This document shows positions 319 through 21,367 of a DNA stretch of 40,193 bases, in pieces (within the stretch, counting starts at the first letter, position 1; every line of letters starts with the position of its first letter). The notes below the pieces were generated by a model, which was not told where the DNA came from, did not search any database, and was given only the letters and a program-made list of their open reading frames with translations. Source of the stretch: a virus (taxonomy: Duplodnaviria > Heunggongvirae > Uroviricota > Caudoviricetes); the IMG/VR virus record IMGVR_UViG_2671180415_000005, one strand, 5' to 3'. Made by a program: the position numbers and the translations under genes.

Positions 319-1056
319 TCATTCACTCTCTTTCAAACCAGTTTTAACTGTTTGTGGTTTTGGGTAAGGCTGGACTTTGAATAGCTTTGTGTTAAGGCGT
401 TTTCTGGCTCTCTTGTCCAGAAACCGGATGTAACGAAACTGACGGAATTTATGAACACTGGCTCTGTCGATATTAGCCCGCAGATGTTCACCTCGCTGTC
501 CTCCTCGTTTGATTGCATTCTTGCAAATCTCGTGATACCACTCGCCATCAAGTTCATAGAATGTTGTTTCATGACTGCCTACATAATCAAAATTGCTTGC
601 CTGGTACACGACACCAAGACAGCCACAACGCTCATCTGCAAACGACTGAACCCACTGCACCTGCGGATAAAGTTGTCTGATTAGTTTGAGCGCGTAACTG
701 ATTGCCCTTGATTCGGAGTTTCTCGGCATACAGTCATGCAGCCATAACCGGTTAAGCTCCATATATTCGCGGTTCTGCGTGCCAGTTACGACGCGTGCAC
801 CATTGTTTGGATTAAGGGCATAACCCCATTGCATTACGCCAACCAGCTCCCGTTCTGAAAATATGCCCAGATGAAGGTAGGAATTATTTACGAAACGATG
901 GCTGTAATGTTTATTGACGACGACCAGCCGGGCCAGCCAGCAACTTATTGTCTCAACCCGTAACTCACGGGAGCCATAACCGACGATATTGTCGTTATAG
1001 TGAATAAGTTCAGGCGTGCTGATGATACGGGATGTAACTTGCTTTCTGTTCCCCAC
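319..1056 (-). CDS. mom: Mom-like DNA modification protein (start uncertain; candidate GTG at 1056, ORF is open up to 1251)
   Basis: Last gene before the prophage end, directly downstream of and overlapping a Com-like zinc-finger gene, as in Mu; AAGGAA 8 nt upstream of GTG; no direct sequence motif verified. Confidence 0.6.
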
Positions 1057-1210
1057 GACAGGATTTCCTTGTGTATGTGGGGTGCTCTGTGGCGCTCTGA
1101 GATGTGATTTGATTGAGGGTTTTACAGCGCGGACATTTAACTTCCAGATAACTGAAGCTGGCTCGTGCCAGTAGCTTGTTACAATGTCGGCACCGTATGT
1201 TTCGATACAT
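1010..1210 (-). CDS. com: Com-like zinc-finger translational activator of mom
   Basis: [34 protein letters not shown]... has the C-x2-C ... C-x2-C Com pattern (IRC.HCNKLL ... KCPRCK); overlaps mom 5' end; alternative upstream start at 1255. Confidence 0.8.
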
Positions 1211-1254
1211 GGCCGCATAACCTCCTGCTTTGTTGTTGATATCTTTATCACTCA

Positions 1255-1350
1255 ATCGATCGACAAAAACGATCGATTTGATTTATTTAATTGATACAAC
1301 AAATAACACGAAATGTCATTAGCGAAAATTTATGAGTTTGATCACTAATT
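1255..1350 (-). promoter_or_regulatory. Candidate Pmom-like regulatory region with clustered Dam GATC sites
   Basis: AT-rich; GATC at 1258, 1271 and 1340 immediately upstream of com on the minus strand; Mu Pmom is regulated by a Dam-methylated GATC cluster. Confidence 0.4.
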
Positions 1351-2544: not shown

Positions 2545-4599
2545 TTACGCGTTATTCACTTCCACCACGATACTGTCAATCAGTACCGGGTAAGTCGCAT
2601 TTTTAGTGATATCGGTCACGCGCAACTTGTCTGCCGTAAACGTGCCGACCGGAGACTGCGACAGCATGAATGGTGTCCCGTCCTTACCATCAATGACCGG
2701 CGTCACCTCAATACTGTTGTTACCGGCAAAACGGAAGCCCAGCGTATGCCATTCGTTATTAAATGCGCCGAATGACCCCAGCTTCGTGTTCTGCGCCGTG
2801 TTTCCTTTGTGATACATCACGTTAAGGTCTGTGGCATCGCTCTGTACGTAGAACGATGCCAGCAGGTTATGACCGGCATTTCCTTCCAGAGTAACCCCTT
2901 GCGGCAGGGCAGAAACCGGCCAGTACAGCGCCAGTGCGTACTGATTAGCCGTAAGCGCGCCATCGAGTTTAAAACGACAACTGACAAGACCACCTTTACC
3001 CAGCAGGTCCGCACCATTACCAGCATCATGCTCAAGGTACCAGGGGGCTCTTCCTGTTTCCTTGGTCAGTTTCATTGCCTTACCCCCGCTGGCTCCGGCA
3101 TCATCCACGATTTGAGCCTTGCCACCTCCGGCAGCCCAACCCTGTGGTGTCAACCGTCCTTCAGACTCAGATGCCCGGTAAGCAAATAGCGTACTCATCG
3201 TCGTGGTGTCTGCGGGTGGCGTGGACGGTTTTGATGGTGTATCAGGTGACGGCTTCTCATCCGGTGGTGTCACGGTCTGCCCGCGCATCAGTTCAGCCGT
3301 GCGCCCTGCATGGAGCATAATAGCTGAGGCCAGACGGTCTGAAATGACGCCCCTGCGTGCCCATGAGCTGAAATGGCTGTCACGCTGTGTCGAAACAAAA
3401 CTGCCCTGGGTTCGGGATGCTGCACCGTAATACCCGACAGCCACAATATCCGGGTCTTCCGCCGGAGCATTCGTTGGCGTGCTCTGTCCATTCTCATCCG
3501 TCAGGAACGGTACAAAGAAAATTTTCTGTGCTTCCTTGCCTTTGTAGCCACCGTATACTGCCTCATATTTATCGGTGCCAGCGTTTTTCCAGTAATACGT
3601 GGTATCACCGCAAATCCACGGCACCGTGGTGGCATTTCCACTCACGCACTGCGCAGCAAGCGGAGCCAGGTCAGTTCTGAACTGCTGAACCATGGCCGTG
3701 AATAAACTATTATGCTGCTGGCTTCCTGAGGCAAGGTCTGCCTCTCCCTGCATCCAGACCACAGCCAGAAGTTTGTTTTTCGGGTTTTTCGCCAGCGCGA
3801 CTTTGGTGCGGCTTACCAGGTCCTGATACAGAGGTTTACCGGCCCCCCAGCGTGAAGAATCAGCGGAAGCACCGCTGGCCTCACTGAATGAGCCGTCGGC
3901 TCCAGTGGTGAATGCTGACCCGCCACGACAACAGGGCACCAGAAGTATCCCGGCATTCTGTGGGATATAGGGAAGCAGTTTTTTGGCAATATGCAACCCC
4001 TGACCGACAGTCCCGTACTGGCCTTTTGCCAGATCAGCTTTCGGGTGGTTTATCCCGCTCATATCCTGAACATCATGCAGGCAGTGGTCTGCCGGAATGA
4101 TGTCGTTGTATGTACACGACGTACCGTTGGGCGTTACCGTACTGCGGCGTGCCAGTTGCTTAATGCGTGGGTCCGGGCGGTCAAACGAATCCGGTAACGG
4201 CAGCCCCTCGCCGTAGGCCATGCCATTTGACTGACCCGCGAGAATGACAACAAAGTAATATTCCGGCTCTGAACTGCTGCCATTCGTGCTACCGGAAGGC
4301 CCGGCGTTATCCGGTGCATTCCAGTCGGAGGGCGTGAGCGTTCCGGCCACGTCAGATGTGATTGGAATGATGCCAGTCACGCCTGAACTGGTGATTTCTG
4401 CACTGGGATTACCGGATACCGGCATTACCCATAATGGCTCTTTCGTGCTGAAGCGGATCACGCAGTCTGCGAAGGTGATCCCCCCTTTATTACCCGAAGG
4501 GCGGAAAGGGCTTTCAATAAATGCCACCGTGCCACCGGCAACCTTGACTGAAAACTCTCCGGGCATGGCGGAGAGCATTTTCCACTTGGAGTCTGACAT
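2545..4599 (-). CDS. SGNH/SASA-family carbohydrate esterase (sialate-O-acetylesterase-like) with Pro/Thr-rich linker and C-terminal beta-rich putative carbohydrate-binding domain; cargo gene
   Basis: 684 aa; motifs ILAGQSNGMAYGEG (GQSN serine motif), VVWMQGEAD and RDSHF (Asp/His) in SASA-like order; linker PPDEKPSPDTPSKPSTPPADTT; no signal peptide; Mu has no gene at this position between gin and com. Confidence 0.7.
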   Translation of the reverse strand: MSDSKWKMLSAMPGEFSVKVAGGTVAFIESPFRPSGNKGGITFADCVIRFSTKEPLWVMPVSGNPSAEITSSGVTGIIPITSDVAGTLTPSDWNAPDNAGPSGSTNGSSSEPEYYFVVILAGQSNGMAYGEGLPLPDSFDRPDPRIKQLARRSTVTPNGTSCTYNDIIPADHCLHDVQDMSGINHPKADLAKGQYGTVGQGLHIAKKLLPYIPQNAGILLVPCCRGGSAFTTGADGSFSEASGASADSSRWGAGKPLYQDLVSRTKVALAKNPKNKLLAVVWMQGEADLASGSQQHNSLFTAMVQQFRTDLAPLAAQCVSGNATTVPWICGDTTYYWKNAGTDKYEAVYGGYKGKEAQKIFFVPFLTDENGQSTPTNAPAEDPDIVAVGYYGAASRTQGSFVSTQRDSHFSSWARRGVISDRLASAIMLHAGRTAELMRGQTVTPPDEKPSPDTPSKPSTPPADTTTMSTLFAYRASESEGRLTPQGWAAGGGKAQIVDDAGASGGKAMKLTKETGRAPWYLEHDAGNGADLLGKGGLVSCRFKLDGALTANQYALALYWPVSALPQGVTLEGNAGHNLLASFYVQSDATDLNVMYHKGNTAQNTKLGSFGAFNNEWHTLGFRFAGNNSIEVTPVIDGKDGTPFMLSQSPVGTFTADKLRVTDITKNATYPVLIDSIVVEVNNA

Positions 4600-4674: not shown

Positions 4675-4704
4675 CAAAAAAGCGTCACGGTACTTTTGGT
4701 GACG
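4675..4704 (-). terminator. Intrinsic terminator after gin (minus-strand sense)
   Basis: Stem CGTCAC (4683..4688) / GTGACG (4699..4704) followed on the minus-strand RNA by CUUUUUUG; overlaps gin stop codon. Confidence 0.5.
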
Positions 4705-5257
4705 GAGCTGGTGAGGCAGGAAAATAACGATAAAGGGTGGAAAGGCCAATATCAAATATCAGTGCGATTTGTTTACGGGACTCGCCATTAGCCAGCAAAC
4801 GGGCGATTTGCTCCCGCTCTTTCTCTGTCAGTTTCTGAGGTCTGCCGCCATGACGCCCCTGAGCACGGGCAGCAGCAAGACCCGCGCGTGTACGTTCAAT
4901 AATGAGTTCCCGCTCCATTTCCGCCAGCGCGCCCATTATATGGAAAAAGAAACGTCCCATGGGAGTGGATGTATCAATATTGTCCGTAATGCTGCGGAAG
5001 TTAACGCCGCGTTGCCGGAGTTCTTCTGTTAAAAGGACAAGGTGCTGCATACTGCGTCCAAGGCGATCCAGTTTCCAGACCAGCAGGGTATCCCCTGGCC
5101 GGAGTCGCTTTAATGCGCGTTTAAGTCCGGGACGCTCCCTTGTCTTACCGCTTATTCTGTCTTCGAAAAACAGCTCACATCCTGCACATTCCAGCGCATT
5201 TCTTTGTAGCGCCGTATTCTGGTCATTTGTTGACACCCTGATATACCCAATCAGCAT
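4685..5257 (-). CDS. gin: Gin-family serine DNA invertase
   Basis: MLIGYIRVSTNDQNTALQRNA...DTLLVWKLDRLGRSMQHL...MGRFFFHIMGALAEMERELIIERT is near-identical in pattern to Mu Gin/Hin/Pin/Cin; adjacent to invertible tail-fiber segment. Confidence 0.95.
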   Translation of the reverse strand: MLIGYIRVSTNDQNTALQRNALECAGCELFFEDRISGKTRERPGLKRALKRLRPGDTLLVWKLDRLGRSMQHLVLLTEELRQRGVNFRSITDNIDTSTPMGRFFFHIMGALAEMERELIIERTRAGLAAARAQGRHGGRPQKLTEKEREQIARLLANGESRKQIALIFDIGLSTLYRYFPASPAPSPKVP

Positions 5258-5322
5258 ACGATTTCCTTATTATAAAAAGCCGGAATTGTCGCATGAGGAA
5301 TAAAACAGAGTTAATCCTGGCT

Positions 5323-5348
5323 TTCCTGAAAACCTCGGTTTACGGGAA
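5323..5348. other. gix-like recombination site (gin-proximal)
   Basis: TTCCTGAAAACC-TC-GGTTTACGGGAA, an imperfect 12-2-12 palindrome closely resembling Mu gix/hix sites. Confidence 0.7.
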
Positions 5349-5687
5349 ACGGTAAACAGGGCGGCGAATGCTCTGCCATCGGACGGCACCGCCGTTGCCG
5401 CGAACAGGCTGGCAAATGCCCACACAATTAATGGTGTTCCCTTTGACGGGACGCAGGATATCACTATCTCATCAGGAACAGTAACCGCCATAAGACTGGG
5501 GGCGGTGACCGCACATATGCCCGGAACATGGGAAAGCTGGGATCTGAATCTGGGGGGCGGCAATGTTCTTACCGGAATTAAAGTACAGGATGTCGGTAAG
5601 AATACGGCAGATAACGTCGGCGGCGTGTATTACCGGCCGTTGCAGTATCTGTTAAATGGAGCATGGGTGACGGCTGCAAGTATATAA
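5337..5687 (+). CDS. Alternative tail-fiber C-terminal cassette (S'v-like), currently in non-expressed orientation
   Basis: Plus-strand frame encodes [26 protein letters not shown] (identical to tail-fiber S at the inverted repeat) then a divergent C-terminus ...[16 protein letters not shown]...LNGAWVTAASI; no start codon of its own at the 5' end. Confidence 0.65.
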   Translation, partial: GLRETVNRAANALPSDGTAVAANRLANAHTINGVPFDGTQDITISSGTVTAIRLGAVTAHMPGTWESWDLNLGGGNVLTGIKVQDVGKNTADNVGGVYYRPLQYLLNGAWVTAASI

Positions 5688-5696
5688 TGATATTCA

Positions 5697-5720
5697 GAAG
5701 GCCTTCCGGCCTTCTTTATT
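5697..5720. terminator. Hairpin with T-tract at the centre of the invertible segment (putative bidirectional terminator)
   Basis: GAAGGCC-TTCC-GGCCTTC followed by TTTATT; lies between convergent S'v cassette and tail-fiber assembly gene. Confidence 0.55.
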
Positions 5721-6240
5721 ACTGTGGCTGCTCAGGCCATTTAATGGCGTTAAATTCAGCTTCTGTTTTAATGGCGGGTAGTTCCATTTTCTTCACCTGA
5801 CTGATGTATGCCATCCATTGGGTAAGTGCTGCTCTGTCTTCATCGCTGATGGTGCCCAGTTGTAGCTCCGTTCTCCAGTCATTAATTTTTTCATATGCCT
5901 GATTAAGATATGACTGGCGCATTGCTTCCAGTTTTCTTGCGTAGTTAACCGGAATACGGGAGATTATGCCATTATCAAACTTCCAGTTTCCTGAAATATC
6001 CGTGCCTTCAGGGAGTTCATCGACCTCAACCACAGAAAACCCCGCAGGATACAGCGCCGAGGCGTCCTGTGATATTGAGCAGATAACGCCGCTGTCAGGT
6101 GTTATGCAAAGTTTATATTTTTTGGTGAATAATGGCAGGGATTCGTAGAAATCCTTACCATCTTCACTCTGGAAATACTGAACATTATTACCATATGGCA
6201 TATTTTCAGGATAATAACGGGTTATATTTTTTAGTTCCAT
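5719..6240 (-). CDS. Tail fiber assembly protein (U-like chaperone)
   Basis: 173 aa immediately downstream of tail fiber gene inside invertible segment; Mu U position; typical Tfa size. Confidence 0.75.
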   Translation of the reverse strand: MELKNITRYYPENMPYGNNVQYFQSEDGKDFYESLPLFTKKYKLCITPDSGVICSISQDASALYPAGFSVVEVDELPEGTDISGNWKFDNGIISRIPVNYARKLEAMRQSYLNQAYEKINDWRTELQLGTISDEDRAALTQWMAYISQVKKMELPAIKTEAEFNAIKWPEQPQ

Positions 6241-6291
6241 AAAATCCTCCTGGAAATAAATCTGTTTTAAAATATATTATTTACTGACTAT

Positions 6292-7182
6292 TTATAACTG
6301 AGATACCGTAATCCATGTACCTCCGACTAATTTTTGCAGGGGTCTGAATGCTATAAAATCGTTTGAAGCATCAACTTTACTGTCAATCTGCAGGCCTGCC
6401 ATAACATTACCGTACGCAGAGTAATATGCCCCACCGTACATTACCTGCCTGTTCTCTGCTCCCAGCCTGATATCCTGGATATATCGGGAATCCGCATCCT
6501 GCTGTGTTATACCAGAAGTGATGTTTATGTCCTGCGTCCCGTCAAAGGGAACCCCATTAATATTTCTTGGGGTGGCGAGTCTATTCGCGGCAACGGCGGT
6601 GCCGTCCGATGGCAGAGCATTCGCCGCCCTGTTTACCGTTTCCCGTAAACCGACGTTATCGATAAAAGCCCCTTTATCCGGAATGTCTGCGCCGTTCTGC
6701 TCCCTGCGCAGGTAACGGTTATCACCTTCGCTTTTGCTGTAAACATCCAGATTATTACGGGCGGTTCCCTTATTCTCCAGGTCGGCGAGATTCTGATCCT
6801 TCGCCAGGGCATTAACGTCAGCGGGACCAAGACTGTTTTTTGTGGCAAGCGTCCCCAGACCAAGATAACCACGGGCCAGACGCTGGGCCTCCGCACCGGC
6901 ATCAGCAATTTCTTTCAGGTTATTTTTCCGGGAAAAGGCATTCGCAGCGATAATGGCTTTAATGGACAGCGTAAGCTGGTTTAACTGCGCCTTATCCGGC
7001 TGAATACTGGCTTCAGCCAGAATATTCAGCAGTTCGGCCTGGAGAATATTCAGCCAGTCCTGACCAATCCAGCTGATACCTTTTTGTCCGTCACCTTCGG
7101 TAAACCAGGTGGTGGTATTACTCTGCGCCGGTGCCAGCGCAGGCATATTCGCCACGCCGGAATTATTATCAACATGAAACAT
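6292..7182 (-). CDS. Tail fiber protein (S-like; constant N-terminal part outside, variable C-terminal part inside invertible segment)
   Basis: 296 aa; spans gix site at 6640..6665; C-terminal region paralogous to S'v cassette. Confidence 0.8.
6640..6665. other. gix-like recombination site (tail-fiber-proximal)
   Basis: TTCCCGTAAACC-GA-CGTTATCGATAA, same architecture as the site at 5323..5348 in inverted orientation. Confidence 0.7.
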
Positions 7183-7742
7183 TAAATAGTCTCCTCTTCA
7201 TGGCTGTTTGCATAAACGTAAATAAACGTCTGCCATGCAGGCTTATAACGGTTCAGAATACATTCCAGCGCACCGCCTTCATAAATACGCAGCGGCGTGA
7301 GAATATCATCCAGCACATTCATATTCCGGTAGCCGGTTTCACTGTTAATCGTGACAATACTGACCCACTGCGAATCCGGTGAGGGCTGAATGTCAATCTG
7401 ATAACCAAACTCCGCCGCAAACCGGATATAAAATTCACGGTTCAGCGAGGGCTTCATCCGGTATTTATTTCCGGCATAACGCTGTCGCTCCGTGAGGGTG
7501 GCTCCGGCCATATCACACTCGGGAAGCCCGAGATAACGCTCCCAGTCTTCCAGCAGCAGGCGCGACGTGTCAGGGAAACGCTCGGCAAGCAGCTGTTTAC
7601 CCGTCCAGGATACACGCGCTGTCGAATGACTGAGGCCCAGACATAATGATGCCAGTACGGATGACGGACGCTTGTCCCATGCCAGCCCGTCAGGCAGTAA
7701 CTGCAACAGGGCGCGCTGATGCGGGGTCAGGGTTACAGCCAT
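7182..7742 (-). CDS. Tail/baseplate protein (Mu gp48 / YmfQ-like)
   Basis: 186 aa between baseplate J-like gene and tail fiber, Mu gp48 position; stop/start overlap with S. Confidence 0.6.
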
Positions 7743-8815
7743 GTGATTTCTCCTACCGTCAGCAGCTCACTGTCTCCCGCCTGAACTGACGTCAGCGGAC
7801 TGCGCACTTCAAAATCCTCCAGATTTTTCACCCCTGCCACCGCCCGCCAGAAAGACGACGGCAGAACCAGACCGCCGGGCCGGGATTCGTTATACAACAG
7901 GTCGGTCAGCGCCTGTTTTACGGCCGCCTGATTCTCCGGTGTTTTCGGGATGATCCTGATGCTGAAGGGCACCGGCTTATTGGTCAGTTTAAACACGGTC
8001 ACCGTCGGCCCCAGAGGCTGTCCGACAGGCTGGCCGGTCGCCGGATCATCATGACTGCGGATATAATCCGCCACCCGCTGAACATCACCGTCACCGGGGA
8101 AAATATCCGGGTTATTATCCTGAACAAACGTTACCCCCACGCTGCCCGCCTGCGGCCATTCCGGGCGGCACCATGCCCGCGTCACGCCCGGCACTTCACG
8201 CGCCCAGCGTTCAAAATCATACTGCGTGCCGCCGGACGGTGGATTCTGCACCCGGAAAACCAGACGGGAAAGCAGCTCCGGCACGGTTTCCACATCCGCA
8301 CCACCGGTGATCCCCGTTCCGGTCACCGTGGCCGTCTGGTTGATCCCCGCCTGCGGTGTGATAAATGTCAGTTTTGTCCCTGCCGGGGCATTCCCCGCAC
8401 GACCGGCACTTTCGGCTTCCACACTGACATTCAGCGTACCGGCCTTACCGGTCAGGGAGGTGGTGATACGGTAAACCACGCCATCACTTCGCTGGAGAAG
8501 CACACCTTCCTTGATCCCCGCATCCGTGGTCAGCATCAGCTGAACCGGCCCGTCCCCCCGAGAGGCAGGCTTACGCATGACGCCCCAGAATGCACAGTGT
8601 TTCAGCAGTTCGGCTTCATCGGCTTCGGTCGGGATGATCTGACGCGCAATCCAGGCCAGATGCTCATGCTCCTGAGCAGATAACCCTGCCTGAGCGTAAG
8701 CAATGGCATTCAGGGTGGTTTCATTCACACCCGGCTGCGAGCCGGGCAGGCGCTGGCTGATATCCTGCTGTGTCTGCGTGATTAACTGTGCCAGCGGTAA
8801 AGGCTGATAAGGCAT
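7733..8815 (-). CDS. Baseplate J-like protein (Mu gp47 / W-like)
   Basis: 360 aa, position and size as Mu gp47; translationally coupled neighbours. Confidence 0.7.
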   Translation of the reverse strand: MPYQPLPLAQLITQTQQDISQRLPGSQPGVNETTLNAIAYAQAGLSAQEHEHLAWIARQIIPTEADEAELLKHCAFWGVMRKPASRGDGPVQLMLTTDAGIKEGVLLQRSDGVVYRITTSLTGKAGTLNVSVEAESAGRAGNAPAGTKLTFITPQAGINQTATVTGTGITGGADVETVPELLSRLVFRVQNPPSGGTQYDFERWAREVPGVTRAWCRPEWPQAGSVGVTFVQDNNPDIFPGDGDVQRVADYIRSHDDPATGQPVGQPLGPTVTVFKLTNKPVPFSIRIIPKTPENQAAVKQALTDLLYNESRPGGLVLPSSFWRAVAGVKNLEDFEVRSPLTSVQAGDSELLTVGEITWL

Positions 8816-9252
8816 TACTCCCCCTTAAGATCAGCATAAAAAATCATGGGCCTCACTGAACCATCAGGCAGGGTTATGCGCACCGAAAGCGCCAGCCGCG
8901 CGTGTCCCACACGTTCTGCATGACAGACCACGGATGACGCCACGCCATCCTGACTGAGCCAGCCCAGCGCCTCATCCGCGTAAGCACGGGCACGGCTTAT
9001 CACCGAGGCCAGCGTTTTTTCCCGGCTGAGAAGCCACAGACGGGAGCCAATGGGGCGCGGGCGAAAACTGTCTCCCCACCATCCCCGGCGGTCGCGCGTA
9101 CCGTCAGGGATTTCATCCGATGCCAGCGCCCGGCGGTCAGTAAACAGCGAAATCAGAACGGCCGTCAGCAGACTGTCATCCGTCAGCAAGTCGGCACCGT
9201 TCAGTTGCAGCGAACCGCACCCCTGATCCCATACAATTGCAATATCAGCCAT
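8815..9252 (-). CDS. Baseplate protein (Mu gp46-like); start taken at internal Met
   Basis: ORF frame open to 9396 but internal MADIAIVWD start at 9252 overlaps upstream gene end by 8 bp, typical coupling. Confidence 0.6.
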   Translation of the reverse strand: MADIAIVWDQGCGSLQLNGADLLTDDSLLTAVLISLFTDRRALASDEIPDGTRDRRGWWGDSFRPRPIGSRLWLLSREKTLASVISRARAYADEALGWLSQDGVASSVVCHAERVGHARLALSVRITLPDGSVRPMIFYADLKGE

Positions 9253-9859
9253 TCTCCGGCGCTCCTGTCTTACTGCCTTTGCCGTTATCCTGATGCACAT
9301 GGCCGGAATAGGTGATCCCGGCAATAACGGCATCAGACATCGTGAACAGCCCGTCTGATTTACCTGTACCATCAAGCACGAAATTACCCTTAACATGCAG
9401 GTTTTTATCCACCGTCACATTGCCCGTAAAGGTGGCCTCCGGCGTATCCACCCGCATCCCCTCATCGGCGTAAATCTCCAGCATTTTGCATGTCACAATA
9501 ATGCGACCATCCTTTGTTAACCGTATCCGGTGCCCCTCATGGTGATACACCCCCGTATCTCCGGCTGTGAGTCCGGTCGGGCGGCTGCGCCGGTCTTCCA
9601 CCACAAGCACCACAGTCTGATCCCGCTGTCCGCCCAGACAGGCAAAAAAGGTTTCCGCACCCGGCAGGGGAACGCTGATCTGCCCGTACTGCTGGGGACG
9701 CTCCACATCATCAAAGGTTTCGCCGTCCATGCCGGTGAGCTGCACATTCTGCATTTTCAGTTCGTCATGTGTGCCGGTCAGAACGCCCCGGCCAAACAAC
9801 AGGCGAATACCGCGCGTTACCGGGGCAATCAGGCGGCTGAACACTTCATCATTCATCAA
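9245..9859 (-). CDS. Baseplate assembly / spike protein (Mu gp45-like, gpV-like)
   Basis: 204 aa, synteny between P-like and gp46-like genes. Confidence 0.65.
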   Translation of the reverse strand: MMNDEVFSRLIAPVTRGIRLLFGRGVLTGTHDELKMQNVQLTGMDGETFDDVERPQQYGQISVPLPGAETFFACLGGQRDQTVVLVVEDRRSRPTGLTAGDTGVYHHEGHRIRLTKDGRIIVTCKMLEIYADEGMRVDTPEATFTGNVTVDKNLHVKGNFVLDGTGKSDGLFTMSDAVIAGITYSGHVHQDNGKGSKTGAPENG

Positions 9860-10973
9860 AGCTGATCCCCTGTTTTTTCATCTGCTGGCGAATAAAGGCA
9901 TCAACATCGTCACCGGAACCACCCCGGCCCTTACTGTCCGGCTCTGCCGGAACGATAAAGCCGTCACGCGGTGCCAGTACCAGCCGGGTGACTTCCCCGT
10001 TATGTTCATCAAGTAAAAACTCCACCTGACAGACCAGCAGTTCAGTCTGTTCTATACCGAAACGCAGGGCTGAAACACCGGTCAGCAGATTGACATCCCA
10101 TAACCGGCCATCATCCCGGAACCAGCCACGCACGGTGGCAGAAAACCGTTCTGAACGGGCAATCGCACGGCGCATTTCACGCAGGGCACGCTGCCGTGCA
10201 CCGGTGGTGTCTGTCTGTTGATCGGCGAGGATGATTTTCGACCGGTAGCGGCCGATCTGCTCATCACTGATGACGCCCACAGGTGCTGCCAGACGGGCGG
10301 CGGATTCGCTGTCTCCCCGTTTGCCACCACCGCGCCCGTGTCCCCGGACACGGTATTCGCTGTATCGTCCTCGCCAGTCCGTGTTGTAATCGGCATCAAG
10401 CAGGTTATCTCCCAGCACCAGTCTGTCCGTCTGCTGGCTTCCTGCCTGGGTGAACACCAGATCGCCGTCAGCATTACTGGTCACCAGCACCCCGCGATGC
10501 CGGGCAGCACGGGTCAGCGCATCCGCCACGGTTTCTGAGTTTTCCAGCGTAAAAGAGCTGAAGGGGCGTGCAGCCGTGTCGTCGTTAACCTGCCAGCGCA
10601 CGGCTATCCCGAAGGGCGCACATAAATCTGCGGCAATCTGTGCCAGCGTCCGGTTGCGCCACTGGCTGCCGGGATGGATGGCGGCACAGTCCACCAGGTC
10701 GCCGGTTTTATCCCGACCGCTGATGCTGATCTGATGACGGGTTGCACTGATCCGCTGACTGACCTGATCCAGCCAGCCACTGATGACCGTCTGCCCGTTA
10801 ATTCTGAGCGTCAGGGACTGACCGGTTCGCAGGGCTGAGGGGATGCGCTCACCGGGCAGCATCAGCCCCAGTTCAAACGACCCGGCCAGATGCTCCAGCG
10901 AGCGACGGACGCTGACCGTCAGCCAGCCGGAAAAAATACTGCCACCGATATACAGTTCAATCCTGCTGCTCAC
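9849..10973 (-). CDS. Tail protein P-like (Mu gp44 / late control D family)
   Basis: 374 aa, synteny after N-like gene. Confidence 0.65.
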   Translation of the reverse strand: MSSRIELYIGGSIFSGWLTVSVRRSLEHLAGSFELGLMLPGERIPSALRTGQSLTLRINGQTVISGWLDQVSQRISATRHQISISGRDKTGDLVDCAAIHPGSQWRNRTLAQIAADLCAPFGIAVRWQVNDDTAARPFSSFTLENSETVADALTRAARHRGVLVTSNADGDLVFTQAGSQQTDRLVLGDNLLDADYNTDWRGRYSEYRVRGHGRGGGKRGDSESAARLAAPVGVISDEQIGRYRSKIILADQQTDTTGARQRALREMRRAIARSERFSATVRGWFRDDGRLWDVNLLTGVSALRFGIEQTELLVCQVEFLLDEHNGEVTRLVLAPRDGFIVPAEPDSKGRGGSGDDVDAFIRQQMKKQGISFDE

Positions 10974-21246: not shown

Positions 21247-21367
21247 ATTGCCTCCGCATAAAGGATGAATATAAAATAAACAGGCGGTCAGTGTACGCTT
21301 AACTGGTAAAGTCGGTGCCTGCCTCCGGGTGGATCATGTATGCGGGTTCGACCCCCGCCACTGACCG

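What the first reader, a model, noticed from the sequence alone, without database searches (positions are those of the whole stretch)
5323..6665. Compact Gin-invertible tail-fiber switch with only one tail-fiber assembly gene and a central bidirectional terminator
Seen in sequence: two gix-like 12-2-12 sites (5323..5348, 6640..6665) bound perfect 70-bp inverted repeats. The segment holds the variable C-terminus of the tail fiber (Sv), one assembly chaperone (U) and a promoterless alternative C-terminal cassette (S'v) on the other strand, with a hairpin plus T-tract (5697..5720) between the convergent units. Established knowledge: Mu's G segment is ~3 kb and carries two complete Sv-U / S'v-U' pairs. 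Here inversion would fuse the constant tail-fiber part to S'v but put the only chaperone gene on the antisense strand, so the alternative fiber would have to fold without a dedicated chaperone or use a trans-acting one. The current orientation expresses Sv plus U.
Basis: partly seen in the sequence, partly recalled or inferred. Interest (0 to 1): 0.5.

Follow-up and report, generated by a model that had tools for sequence, protein, structure and literature searches.

The report
Mini tail-fibre switch, one chaperone gene
A Mu-like prophage of E. coli carries a working 1.3-kb DNA flip-switch that swaps the tip of its tail fibre but, unlike phage Mu, holds only one fibre-assembly chaperone gene, which ends up on the wrong strand in the orientation most genomes show.

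Summary
Two gix-like 26-bp sites (5323-5348, 6640-6665) bound a perfect 70-bp inverted repeat. Between them lie Sv, one tfa gene (U), a hairpin, and a promoterless S'v cassette. A Gin homologue (74% identical to Mu Gin) sits next to the segment.

In-silico inversion gives an in-frame 293-aa Sc-S'v fibre. Inversion happens in nature: strains NCCP 13983 and FORC_029 are identical over 42.7 kb except that this segment is exactly reverse-complemented.

The single-tfa layout is not an assembly artefact. It recurs in about 235 complete E. coli genomes in two lineages, one typified by an O157:H7/O111 element. The S'v-fused, U-antisense state predominates (21 v 6 and 182 v 26).

S'v is under purifying selection (dN/dS about 0.1). 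Both tips are short versions of the Mu S tip. In every other phage I checked, S'v-type tips are followed directly by a tfa gene.

A sister variant of the same prophage has two unrelated cassettes, each with its own tfa. The window holds no second tfa.

How the S'v fibre gets a chaperone is unresolved. My best guess is that U is a shared, generalist chaperone expressed independently of orientation. This is a new variant of the Mu G / P1 C kind, of moderate interest.

The parts
4685..5257 (-). Gin-family serine DNA invertase, 190 aa
   Evidence: Pfam Resolvase E=1.6e-51 and HTH_7 E=4.9e-15; PHROG 125 'DNA invertase'. 73.9% identical to Mu Gin over 184 aa. The same protein accession (WP_000904914.1) is annotated in genomes of both orientations.
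5258..5322 (.). Spacer between the gin start and the left crossover site; presumably holds the gin promoter
   Evidence: Conserved among the single-tfa and two-tfa relatives. No consensus sigma-70 site was called here.
5323..5348 (.). Left gix-like crossover site, TTCCTGAAAACC TC GGTTTACGGGAA (core 5335-5336)
   Evidence: compared with Mu gix. The same site is found in L001-L007.
5335..5404 (.). Left arm of the perfect 70-bp inverted repeat (extended arm 5328-5413; further similarity 5427-5476)
5337..5687 (+). S'v: promoterless alternative C-terminal cassette (116 codons plus stop) of tip type 'GIxVQDxGxNxADNxGGVYYRPxQ'
   Evidence: Open frame with no start codon. In frame with Sc after in-silico inversion. 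PHROG 1833 tail fibre E=9e-33. dN/dS 0.09-0.13 among relatives' S'v cassettes and about 0.31-0.37 for the window's own against them. A profile of this tip type hits Mu S residues 415-503 in PDB 5YVQ, E=2.4e-16.
5696..5715 (.). GC-rich hairpin between the convergent S'v and U units; U-tract only on the plus (S'v-sense) strand
   Evidence: A hairpin at the same position but with different sequence occurs in L005, L006, L007, Mu and SfMu.
5719..6240 (-). U: the only tail fibre assembly (Tfa) gene, 173 aa, with a strong AGGAGG ribosome-binding site
   Evidence: Pfam Caudo_TAP E=4.8e-19; PHROG 136 E=4.7e-56. Matches Mu U in PDB 5YVQ chain B, E=4e-16. No other tfa homologue in the window.
6241..6291 (-). 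51-bp AT-rich spacer between the Sv stop and the U start
   Evidence: Spacers are 51-120 bp in single-tfa elements against 0-20 bp in ordinary fibre-tfa pairs. The spacer sequence is not conserved between lineages. No consensus promoter was called.
6292..6651 (-). Sv: the variable C-terminal part of the tail fibre that is expressed in the window's orientation
   Evidence: The tip matches Mu S residues 435-502 (5YVQ), domain E=1e-4.
6584..6653 (.). Right arm of the perfect 70-bp inverted repeat
6640..6665 (.). Right gix-like crossover site, TTCCCGTAAACC GA CGTTATCGATAA (core 6652-6653), inside the S coding sequence (codons I-D-N-V-G-L-R-E)
   Evidence: It falls at the same place in the protein as Mu gixL (FI.N.GL.ETVN).
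6654..7182 (-). Sc: constant N-terminal part of the tail fibre, about 177 aa, outside the invertible segment
   Evidence: Residues 1-198 align to Mu S 1-191 at 47% identity, E=2e-44.
7182..7742 (-). Mu gp48-like baseplate wedge protein, the fibre docking partner; gives the context of the late operon
   Evidence: Pfam Phage_Mu_Gp48 E=7.5e-22. gp48 docks the fibre N-terminus in Mu (PMC11915804).

Best explanation
This is an active Gin/gix-type site-specific inversion switch that changes the receptor-binding tip of the tail fibre of a Mu-like prophage. It is a 1.3-kb 'mini-G segment'.

Shown:
- The constant part of the fibre gene (Sc) lies outside the segment. The right crossover site lies inside the fibre reading frame.
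- Gin-mediated exchange at the TC/GA core dinucleotides joins Sc to either Sv (296-aa fibre, followed by the chaperone gene U) or S'v (293-aa fibre, followed by the hairpin, with U and Sv now antisense).
- Both tips are shortened versions of the Mu S tip domain.
- Both orientations occur in nature, and both cassettes are kept by selection.

Inferred:
- The system works as a two-state host-range switch, like Mu G(+)/G(-).
- The single U is a generalist chaperone that can serve both tips. The second tfa was dispensable because the two tips share one fold.
- In the S'v state, U must be made from transcription that does not depend on the late operon. The most likely sources are the unusually long AT-rich spacer just upstream of U, or read-in from the gin side.

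I put about 0.4 on this last step. The main alternative is that the S'v tip assembles without any phage Tfa (about 0.3).
For: Anatomy and frame.

Homology to Mu:
- Gin is 74% identical to Mu Gin.
- Sc aligns to Mu S 1-191, and the crossover falls at the same residues.
- U matches Mu U in PDB 5YVQ.
- The gene order gp44-gp48, S, segment, gin, com, mom matches Mu.

Inversion in nature:
- The in-silico inverted sequence matches 17 genomes at 99.6% or better over its full length; the native orientation matches 4.
- NCCP 13983 and FORC_029 have 0 mismatches over 42,701 bp outside a 1,281-bp stretch, and 0 mismatches inside it after reverse-complementing.

Conservation:
- The same layout is found in relatives at 80-90% identity.
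- In the lineage typified by L007 (an O157:H7/O111 element), 26 genomes are native and 182 inverted.
- Citrobacter braakii has a version with three cassettes and one tfa.

S'v is functional:
- dN/dS is 0.09-0.13 at dS 0.7-1.4 among the relatives' S'v cassettes.
- The window's own, shorter S'v gives about 0.31-0.37 against them, at near-saturated dS.

A shared chaperone is plausible:
- Both tips are homologous to the Mu S tip.
- U does not co-vary with either cassette. L006 has the same Sv, but its U is 81% (N-terminal half) and 46% (C-terminal half) identical. L005 has a different Sv and S'v, but its U is 89% and 92% identical.
- SfMu_51 is nearly the same protein as Mu U, yet their partner tips differ in type.
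- The N-terminal fibre-binding half of U is closest to Tfa proteins whose partner fibre has an S'v-type tip: 52-55% over residues 1-45 to POP15 and CR8, and 52% over residues 46-95 to a P1 variant.
- A sister variant with two structurally unrelated cassettes (Collar and Gp53-like_C) keeps two different tfa genes.

Spacer upstream of tfa: 51-120 bp here, against 0-20 bp in ordinary pairs.
Against: - No transcript data are available.
- The consensus scan finds no sigma-70 promoter for U on its own strand, either in the spacer or at the gin side.
- The spacer sequence is not conserved between lineages. It lacks the C-runs seen upstream of the late genes lys and I in this window. It could simply be a recombination scar from cassette exchange.
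- Generalist binding by U is inferred from sequence patterns only.
- Orientation counts come from assemblies of partly clonal strains, so the excess of the S'v state may reflect ancestry rather than function.
- The Fis enhancer that Gin systems need could not be identified from sequence.
Confidence: 0.8

Rival explanations
1. The S'v fibre folds and works without any phage-encoded Tfa. The switch then toggles between a Tfa-capped fibre (Sv with U, as in Mu, where Tfa stays on the virion) and a naked fibre (S'v).
For: - There is no tfa on the late strand after S'v, and none elsewhere in the window.
- The S'v state is nevertheless the commonest one, and S'v is under purifying selection.
- No promoter for U was detected.
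- The window's S'v cassette ends in a hairpin with a U-tract, like a self-contained unit.
Against: In every other context I examined, fibres ending in this tip type are directly followed by a tfa gene. These are POP15, CR8, a P1 variant, SfMu_52/51 and C. braakii cassette A. In phage 19-1-2 the next gene (p60, 17 bp downstream) is annotated only as hypothetical and resembles U weakly, at 26-30% identity. Mu-type fibres are reported to need Tfa for correct assembly and trimerisation (North et al. 2019, as summarised in PMC9608196).
Confidence: 0.3
2. The chaperone for the S'v state comes in trans, from a second copy of the prophage in the opposite orientation or from tfa genes of other resident prophages.
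For: - Several genomes carry two copies in opposite orientations: DLI.5a, TOE17 and AST46 and Z869.
- Mu-like elements transpose, so extra copies arise.
- E. coli genomes commonly hold other tfa genes, and Tfa proteins are known to cross-complement in some cases (from my own knowledge, not tested here).
Against: - The median number of matching places per genome in these searches is one to two, which suggests most carrier genomes hold a single copy; copy number was not counted directly.
- Other prophages are repressed and would not be co-induced.
- Dependence on a helper would be hard to reconcile with dN/dS of about 0.1 on S'v.
Confidence: 0.1
3. S'v is a decaying leftover of a Mu-type G segment that lost U' by deletion. 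The S'v orientation gives fibreless or non-infective particles, so the element is an ON/OFF switch or is on its way to loss.
For: - Mu, SfMu and a sister variant of this same prophage all have two tfa genes, so a one-tfa state is most simply derived by deletion.
- Only 31 bp lie between the S'v stop and the U stop.
Against: - S'v is intact in all relatives and under purifying selection (dN/dS 0.09-0.13 between relatives, with dS up to 1.4).
- The layout is conserved across lineages that have diverged to 80-90% DNA identity, and in about 235 closed genomes.
- No tfa remnant is detectable.
Confidence: 0.08
4. The layout is an assembly artefact: a second tfa, or more of the segment, was collapsed because of the inverted repeats.
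For: Inverted repeats flanking a population-heterogeneous segment are a known source of misassembly (general knowledge).
Against: - A segment of the same 1.3-kb length and gene content is present in many independently closed genomes in both orientations.
- An isogenic pair differs by an exact reverse complement with no length change.
Confidence: 0.01

Closest known systems
Invertible G segment of phage Mu (and SfMu, D108) with Gin
   Same: - Same genome position: after gp48, before gin, com and mom.
- Gin is 74% identical.
- The 26-bp gix sites share the core, and the inner half-site differs at 1 of 12 positions.
- The crossover falls at the same residues of S.
- Sc is homologous (47% identity).
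- There is a hairpin between the convergent units.
- The tip domains are homologous to the Mu S tip, and U is homologous to Mu U and U'.
   Different: - 1.3 kb instead of 3.06 kb.
- The cassettes keep only about 90-95 variable residues and lack Mu's roughly 240-aa shaft, giving fibres of 293-296 aa against 504 aa.
- One tfa instead of two, so one orientation leaves the chaperone antisense.
- The perfect inverted repeat is 70 bp, against a 34-bp repeat reported for Mu-type G segments (PMC4406740).
- A 51-bp spacer precedes tfa, against 2 bp in Mu.
- An esterase gene is inserted between gin and com.
Sp18, the Mu-like prophage of E. coli O157:H7 Sakai
   Same: [quoted passage not shown] O157:H7 and O111 genomes carry a Mu-like element, typified by L007, with the same gene order and gix sites as the window. 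I take that element to be Sp18 or a close relative; I did not compare it with the Sakai record.
   Different: - In the L007 element the cassettes and U are diverged from the window's: Sv 49%, S'v 54% and U 61% amino-acid identity.
- I found no paper that describes the single-tfa asymmetry, the orientation bias, or the cassette types.
Sister variant of the same prophage with two tfa genes (for example E. coli GCA_011836255.2, L034)
   Same: Same Sc (96-98% identical), the same gp44-gp48 genes, the same invertase, and the same SASA/DUF6645 esterase downstream.
   Different: The segment carries two structurally unrelated cassettes, a Gp53-like_C tip and a Collar tip. Each is followed within 0-20 bp by its own tfa, of 147 and 200 aa.
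Multi-cassette inversion regions (Min of plasmid p15B; the Citrobacter braakii ATCC 51113 Mu-like prophage found here)
   Same: C. braakii has gix-like sites with the same core and inner half-site, a Gin homologue, three alternative cassettes and only one tfa. In the assembled state that tfa is antisense to the fibre gene. p15B Min likewise shuffles several fibre 3' ends (from memory, not tested here).
   Different: C. braakii has three crossover sites instead of two. Its tfa sits next to the S'v-type cassette, so two of its three states put tfa downstream on the sense strand.
Carotovoricin Er tail-fibre inversion (Ein invertase) in Pectobacterium
   Same: A compact invertase-driven exchange of fibre C-termini that alters target range (cited in PMC13195805). 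From memory, the invertible fragment is about 0.8 kb.
   Different: It is a P2-like tailocin rather than a Mu-like phage. I could not read the primary paper to check where its chaperone gene lies, so the comparison on the chaperone point is untested.

Membership tests
Gin/Hin/Cin/Pin (Din) serine-invertase inversion systems | Small serine recombinase with an N-terminal catalytic domain (active-site Ser in YxRVSTxxQ) and a C-terminal HTH | tested here: met
   Pfam Resolvase E=1.6e-51 and HTH_7 E=4.9e-15. The sequence starts MLIGYIRVSTNDQ and is 73.9% identical to Mu Gin.
Gin/Hin/Cin/Pin (Din) serine-invertase inversion systems | Two 26-bp crossover sites (12-2-12) in inverted orientation with identical central dinucleotides | tested here: met
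   Sites 5323-5348 and 6640-6665 have core TC/GA and inner half-site GGTTTACGGGAA, against Mu GGTTTACAGGAA. The outer half-sites differ from Mu at 3-4 of 12 positions. The right site has G instead of C next to the core.
Gin/Hin/Cin/Pin (Din) serine-invertase inversion systems | Fis-bound recombinational enhancer in the 5' part of the invertase gene | tested here: inconclusive
   A nucleotide identity profile of gin against Mu gin shows no distinctive block; third-position identity is 0.65 in nucleotides 1-60 and 0.4 thereafter. I had no Fis-site model, and binding needs experiment.
Gin/Hin/Cin/Pin (Din) serine-invertase inversion systems | The segment actually inverts | tested here: met
   Both orientations are found in closed genomes. 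The isogenic pair NCCP 13983 and FORC_029 differs only by an exact reverse complement of the segment.
Mu-type G segment (S-U / U'-S') | Constant 5' part of the fibre gene outside the segment, with alternative 3' parts inside, both in frame | tested here: met
   fibres of 296 aa and 293 aa.
Mu-type G segment (S-U / U'-S') | Each alternative cassette is followed by its own tail fibre assembly gene (U and U') | tested here: not met
   There is one Caudo_TAP gene only. 31 bp lie between the S'v stop and the U stop, and no tfa homologue is found elsewhere in 40 kb. Mu and SfMu have two.
Mu-type G segment (S-U / U'-S') | Location between the baseplate gene gp48 and gin-com-mom at the right end of a transposable phage | tested here: met
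   Pfam hits for Gp48, Com and Mom, and the ORF order. A 2-kb esterase gene is inserted between gin and com.
Tfa (Caudo_TAP) tail fibre assembly proteins | Conserved C-terminal Caudo_TAP domain, a variable N-terminal fibre-binding domain, and a gene adjacent to the fibre gene | tested here: met
   Caudo_TAP E=4.8e-19 over residues 55-173. Matches Mu U (5YVQ_B), E=4e-16. The domain roles are taken from PMC9608196.
Intrinsic (rho-independent) bidirectional terminator | GC-rich hairpin followed by a U-tract on both strands | tested here: inconclusive
   The hairpin is stable on both strands (z = -3.2 and -4.4). The U-tract is found only on the plus strand in the window, only on the U-sense strand in L007, and only on the U'-sense strand in Mu. 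Termination itself was not tested.

The most novel reading that the evidence does not exclude
A Mu-type tail-fibre tip that is paired with a dedicated Tfa gene in the other phages examined is here produced in the majority orientation with the only tfa gene antisense. One of two things must then be true. Either this tip can assemble with no phage chaperone, so the switch toggles the presence of the Tfa cap, a host-binding component in Mu, as well as the tip. Or tfa has an orientation-independent promoter inside an invertible segment. Either result would revise the rule that each invertible fibre cassette needs its own co-oriented tfa, and would give a natural minimal system for asking what Tfa proteins are needed for.
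Probability: 0.35. Interest if true: 0.6.

Novelty: new variant of a known kind. Interest (0 to 1): 0.45.

Why it matters
Invertible fibre segments are the textbook example of phage host-range switching. Tfa chaperones are now known to stay on the Mu virion and to help bind the host.

This element is a natural minimal version: about 90-95 variable residues per cassette (116-119 codons counting the shared repeat) and one chaperone gene. It is present in about 4% of complete E. coli genomes, including O157:H7. It offers a simple system for three questions:
- whether a Tfa can serve two different tips;
- whether some Mu-type tips fold without a Tfa;
- how a gene inside an invertible segment is expressed in both orientations.

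It also matters for annotation. In the majority state, automatic pipelines label the silent cassette a truncated 'phage tail protein' pseudogene. It matters too for engineering compact switchable receptor-binding modules.

Tried and rejected
- **Second tfa or a U' remnant.** tblastn of the window's U, Mu U and Mu U' against all six frames of the window gave only noise.
- **Promoter for U.** The consensus scan found none on the U strand. The spacer does not align between lineages. Comparison with regions upstream of lys, I, com and P showed no shared late-promoter motif. The motif WAAAACAGAK occurs only twice in the window, once just outside the left site and once in the Sv-U spacer. I found it post hoc, and its first copy is also conserved in the two-tfa relative, so I do not build on it.
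- **Fis enhancer.** The identity profile of gin against Mu gin was not informative.
- **Co-variation of U with either tip.** U behaves as an independently recombining module. This argues for low specificity but gives no direct pairing signal.
- **Solved structure showing whether a Tfa sits on an S'v-type tip.** The closest entry, 9CUY/9MJN (phage phiTE short fibre), has only the N-terminus modelled.
- **Primary papers.** Those on carotovoricin inversion and on Tfa binding to host surfaces are not in the library.
- **Literature searches.** Searches for a description of the single-tfa layout found only the one-line remark on Sp18.
- **tRNA.** RefSeq annotates a 'tRNA-OTHER' inside the related prophage, but ARAGORN finds none in the window.
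- **Not run.** I ran no structure prediction; a monomer prediction would not bear on chaperone dependence.
Full report
**What is in the sequence**

The window is the right two-thirds of a Mu-like prophage whose late genes run on the minus strand.
- The gene order is gp44-gp48 (10973-7182), then a 296-aa tail fibre gene S (7182-6292), then a 173-aa tail fibre assembly gene U (6240-5719).
- On the plus strand, an open frame without a start codon runs from 5337 to the stop at 5685-5687 (S'v).
- Then, on the minus strand again, come a 190-aa serine invertase (5257-4685), a 684-aa SASA/DUF6645 esterase, com and mom.

- The longest perfect inverted repeat is 70 bp, 5335-5404 against 6584-6653. It extends to 86 nt at 94%, and a further 50-nt block matches at 84%.
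- Each arm begins at the central dinucleotide of a 26-bp 12-2-12 site: TTCCTGAAAACC TC GGTTTACGGGAA (5323-5348) and TTCCCGTAAACC GA CGTTATCGATAA (6640-6665).
- The gix site read from the Mu record is TTATCCAAAACC TC GGTTTACAGGAA.

A GC-rich hairpin (5696-5715) sits in the 31 bp between the S'v stop and the U stop. It is significantly stable on both strands, but has a U-tract only on the S'v-sense strand.

**Relation to Mu**

- The invertase is 73.9% identical to Mu Gin.
- The first 198 residues of S align to residues 1-191 of Mu S (PDB 5YVQ, E=2e-44).
- The crossover site lies at the same residues in both proteins ([12 protein letters not shown] against FIQNLGLQETVN).
- U matches Mu U in the same PDB entry.
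- Mu's G segment spans 3,059 bp and holds S-U and U'-S'.
- Here the segment is 1.3 kb. Both cassettes retain only the last 70 or so residues homologous to the Mu S tip and lack Mu's long shaft.
- There is one tfa, and tblastn with three Tfa proteins finds no other anywhere in the window.

**Does it invert?**

Exchanging the DNA between the two core dinucleotides in silico gives an in-frame 293-aa Sc-S'v fibre, with U and Sv on the opposite strand.

Among 5,426 complete E. coli genomes:
- The window's orientation is matched at 99.6% or better over 2.7 kb in 4 genomes (6 genomes at 80% coverage or more).
- The in-silico inverted form is matched at 99.6% or better in 17 genomes (21 at 80% coverage or more).
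- RefSeq annotation of two inverted examples shows tfa on the opposite strand and a 293-aa fibre.

The cleanest evidence is an isogenic pair.
- NCCP 13983 and FORC_029 carry the prophage at the same chromosomal site.
- Over 42,701 bp they have no mismatch outside a 1,281-bp stretch, and none inside it once that stretch is reverse-complemented.
- The invertase protein accession is the same in both.

So the switch is active, or was very recently, and the layout is not an assembly artefact.

**How widespread is the layout?**

- Relatives at 80-90% DNA identity have the same order: invertase, S'v, tfa, S, gp48.
- They also share the same crossover sites.
- Taking the O157:H7/O111-type element (L007) as query, 26 genomes match its native state and 182 its in-silico inverted state.
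- In both lineages, therefore, the state with U antisense is the commoner one in assemblies. Because many of these strains are clonal, this may reflect ancestry and slow flipping rather than bias.
- The right site has G where the left has C next to the core, which might slow the reaction. A similar argument was made for SfMu (PMC4406740).
- Outside E. coli, Citrobacter braakii ATCC 51113 has three gix-like sites, three cassettes and a single tfa that is antisense in the assembled state.
- A 2009 paper noted in one sentence that Sp18 of O157 Sakai has an invertible host-specificity region whose genes differ from Mu's (PMC2669165).
- I found no description of the single-tfa asymmetry.

**Is S'v a functional cassette?**

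Yes, by the usual evolutionary test.
- Excluding the shared repeat, S'v cassettes of three lineages differ with dN/dS of 0.09-0.13 at dS of 0.7-1.4. This is the same range as U (0.09-0.14).
- The window's own S'v is a shorter variant, 54% identical to the others, with dN/dS about 0.3-0.4 at near-saturated dS.
- Across lineages, the cassette on the U-less side is always the same tip type (GIxVQDxGxNSADNIGGVYYRPxQ), while the U-adjacent Sv tip is of three different types.

**Does this tip normally need a chaperone?**

- In every non-invertible or symmetric context I examined, a fibre ending in this tip type is directly followed by a tfa gene. These are Pectobacterium phage POP15, Cronobacter phage CR8, a P1 variant, SfMu_52/51 and C. 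braakii cassette A. In Escherichia phage 19-1-2 the next gene is unannotated and only weakly Tfa-like.
- Mu Tfa binds the fibre tip through its N-terminal domain, drives trimerisation through its C-terminal domain, and stays on the virion (North et al. 2019, as summarised in PMC9608196; PMC11915804).
- So a chaperone-free S'v would be unusual.

**Could U serve both tips?**

Several observations point that way.
- U does not co-vary with either cassette. L006 has the window's Sv but a U only 81% (N-terminal half) and 46% (C-terminal half) identical. L005 has different cassettes but a U 89% and 92% identical.
- SfMu_51 is nearly the same protein as Mu U, although their partner tips are of different types.
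- The N-terminal half of U is closest to Tfa proteins that partner S'v-type tips: 52-55% over residues 1-45 to POP15 and CR8, and 52% over residues 46-95 to the P1 variant.
- A sister variant of this very prophage has the same Sc, invertase and esterase. It carries two structurally unrelated cassettes (Gp53-like_C and Collar) and keeps two different tfa genes, each 0-20 bp from its fibre gene.

The simplest reading is that one tfa suffices when both tips share a fold.

**The unsolved step**

In the S'v state U lies antisense to the late operon.
- I found no consensus promoter for U and no motif shared with late-gene upstream regions.
- The one suggestive fact is spacing. U is preceded by 51-120 bp of AT-rich spacer in single-tfa elements, against 0-20 bp in ordinary pairs.
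- However, the spacer is not conserved and may be a recombination scar.

I therefore rate orientation-independent expression of a shared U at about 0.4, a Tfa-free S'v fibre at about 0.3, supply in trans at about 0.1, and a non-functional S'v state below 0.1.

**The hairpin**

A hairpin of different sequence occupies the same position between the convergent units in all four E. coli lineages, in Mu and in SfMu. It is therefore a conserved feature of G segments, not a peculiarity of this one. In each case the U-tract lies on one side only, so bidirectional termination is not established.

**Verdict**

The element is a compact, asymmetric variant of the Mu G / P1 C class. It is widespread in E. 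coli and demonstrably inverting. Its open mechanistic question, how the majority state gets or avoids its chaperone, can be tested directly.

Noticed in passing
window 2545-4599 (-): A 684-aa protein with a sialate O-acetylesterase (SASA) domain and DUF6645 is inserted between the invertase and com/mom. Mu and SfMu have nothing there. It is conserved in all E. coli relatives looked at, including the two-tfa variant.
   Followed up: partly
L034 5001-8049 (E. coli GCA_011836255.2); L032: A sister variant of the same prophage has the same Sc, invertase and esterase. It carries a symmetric segment with two unrelated cassettes (Gp53-like_C tip and Collar tip), each with its own tfa of 147 and 200 aa.
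   Followed up: partly
L033 (Logan SRR8924463 contig) 5001-10903: One invertible segment is flanked on both sides by Mu-like baseplate modules facing each other, with no invertase between them. This could be a large inversion between the gix sites of two prophage copies, or a chimeric assembly.
   Followed up: no
L010 6819-9871 (Citrobacter braakii ATCC 51113): A Mu-like prophage with three gix-like sites, three alternative fibre cassettes and one 229-aa tfa. Two of its three possible states would place tfa downstream on the sense strand; the assembled state does not.
   Followed up: partly
window 5301-5310 (+) and 6260-6269 (-): The motif WAAAACAGAK occurs only twice in 40 kb (0.28 expected). 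One copy is just outside the left crossover site and one is in the Sv-U spacer. After inversion both would lie on the same strand upstream of U. I found it post hoc, and the first copy is also conserved in the two-tfa relative.
   Followed up: partly
E. coli complete genomes: The S'v-fused orientation outnumbers the Sv-fused one by 21 to 6 and by 182 to 26 in two lineages. Several genomes (DLI.5a, TOE17, AST46, Z869) hold two copies in opposite orientations. The Sv-state copy in DLI.5a has a frameshifted invertase and a large deletion of structural genes.
   Followed up: partly
window 6640-6665: The right crossover site has G next to the core (AACG|TC) where the left site and Mu have C. The position is constrained by the Asn-Val codons of the fibre. 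It may lower the inversion rate.
   Followed up: no
window 319-1255 (-): The longest mom ORF is 310 aa from a GTG start and overlaps com. Relatives are annotated with a 245-aa Mom, so the real start is probably internal.
   Followed up: no
window about 21247-21367; L037 36687-36766: RefSeq annotates a 'tRNA-OTHER' between the virion morphogenesis and head morphogenesis genes of the related prophage. ARAGORN finds no tRNA in the window.
   Followed up: partly
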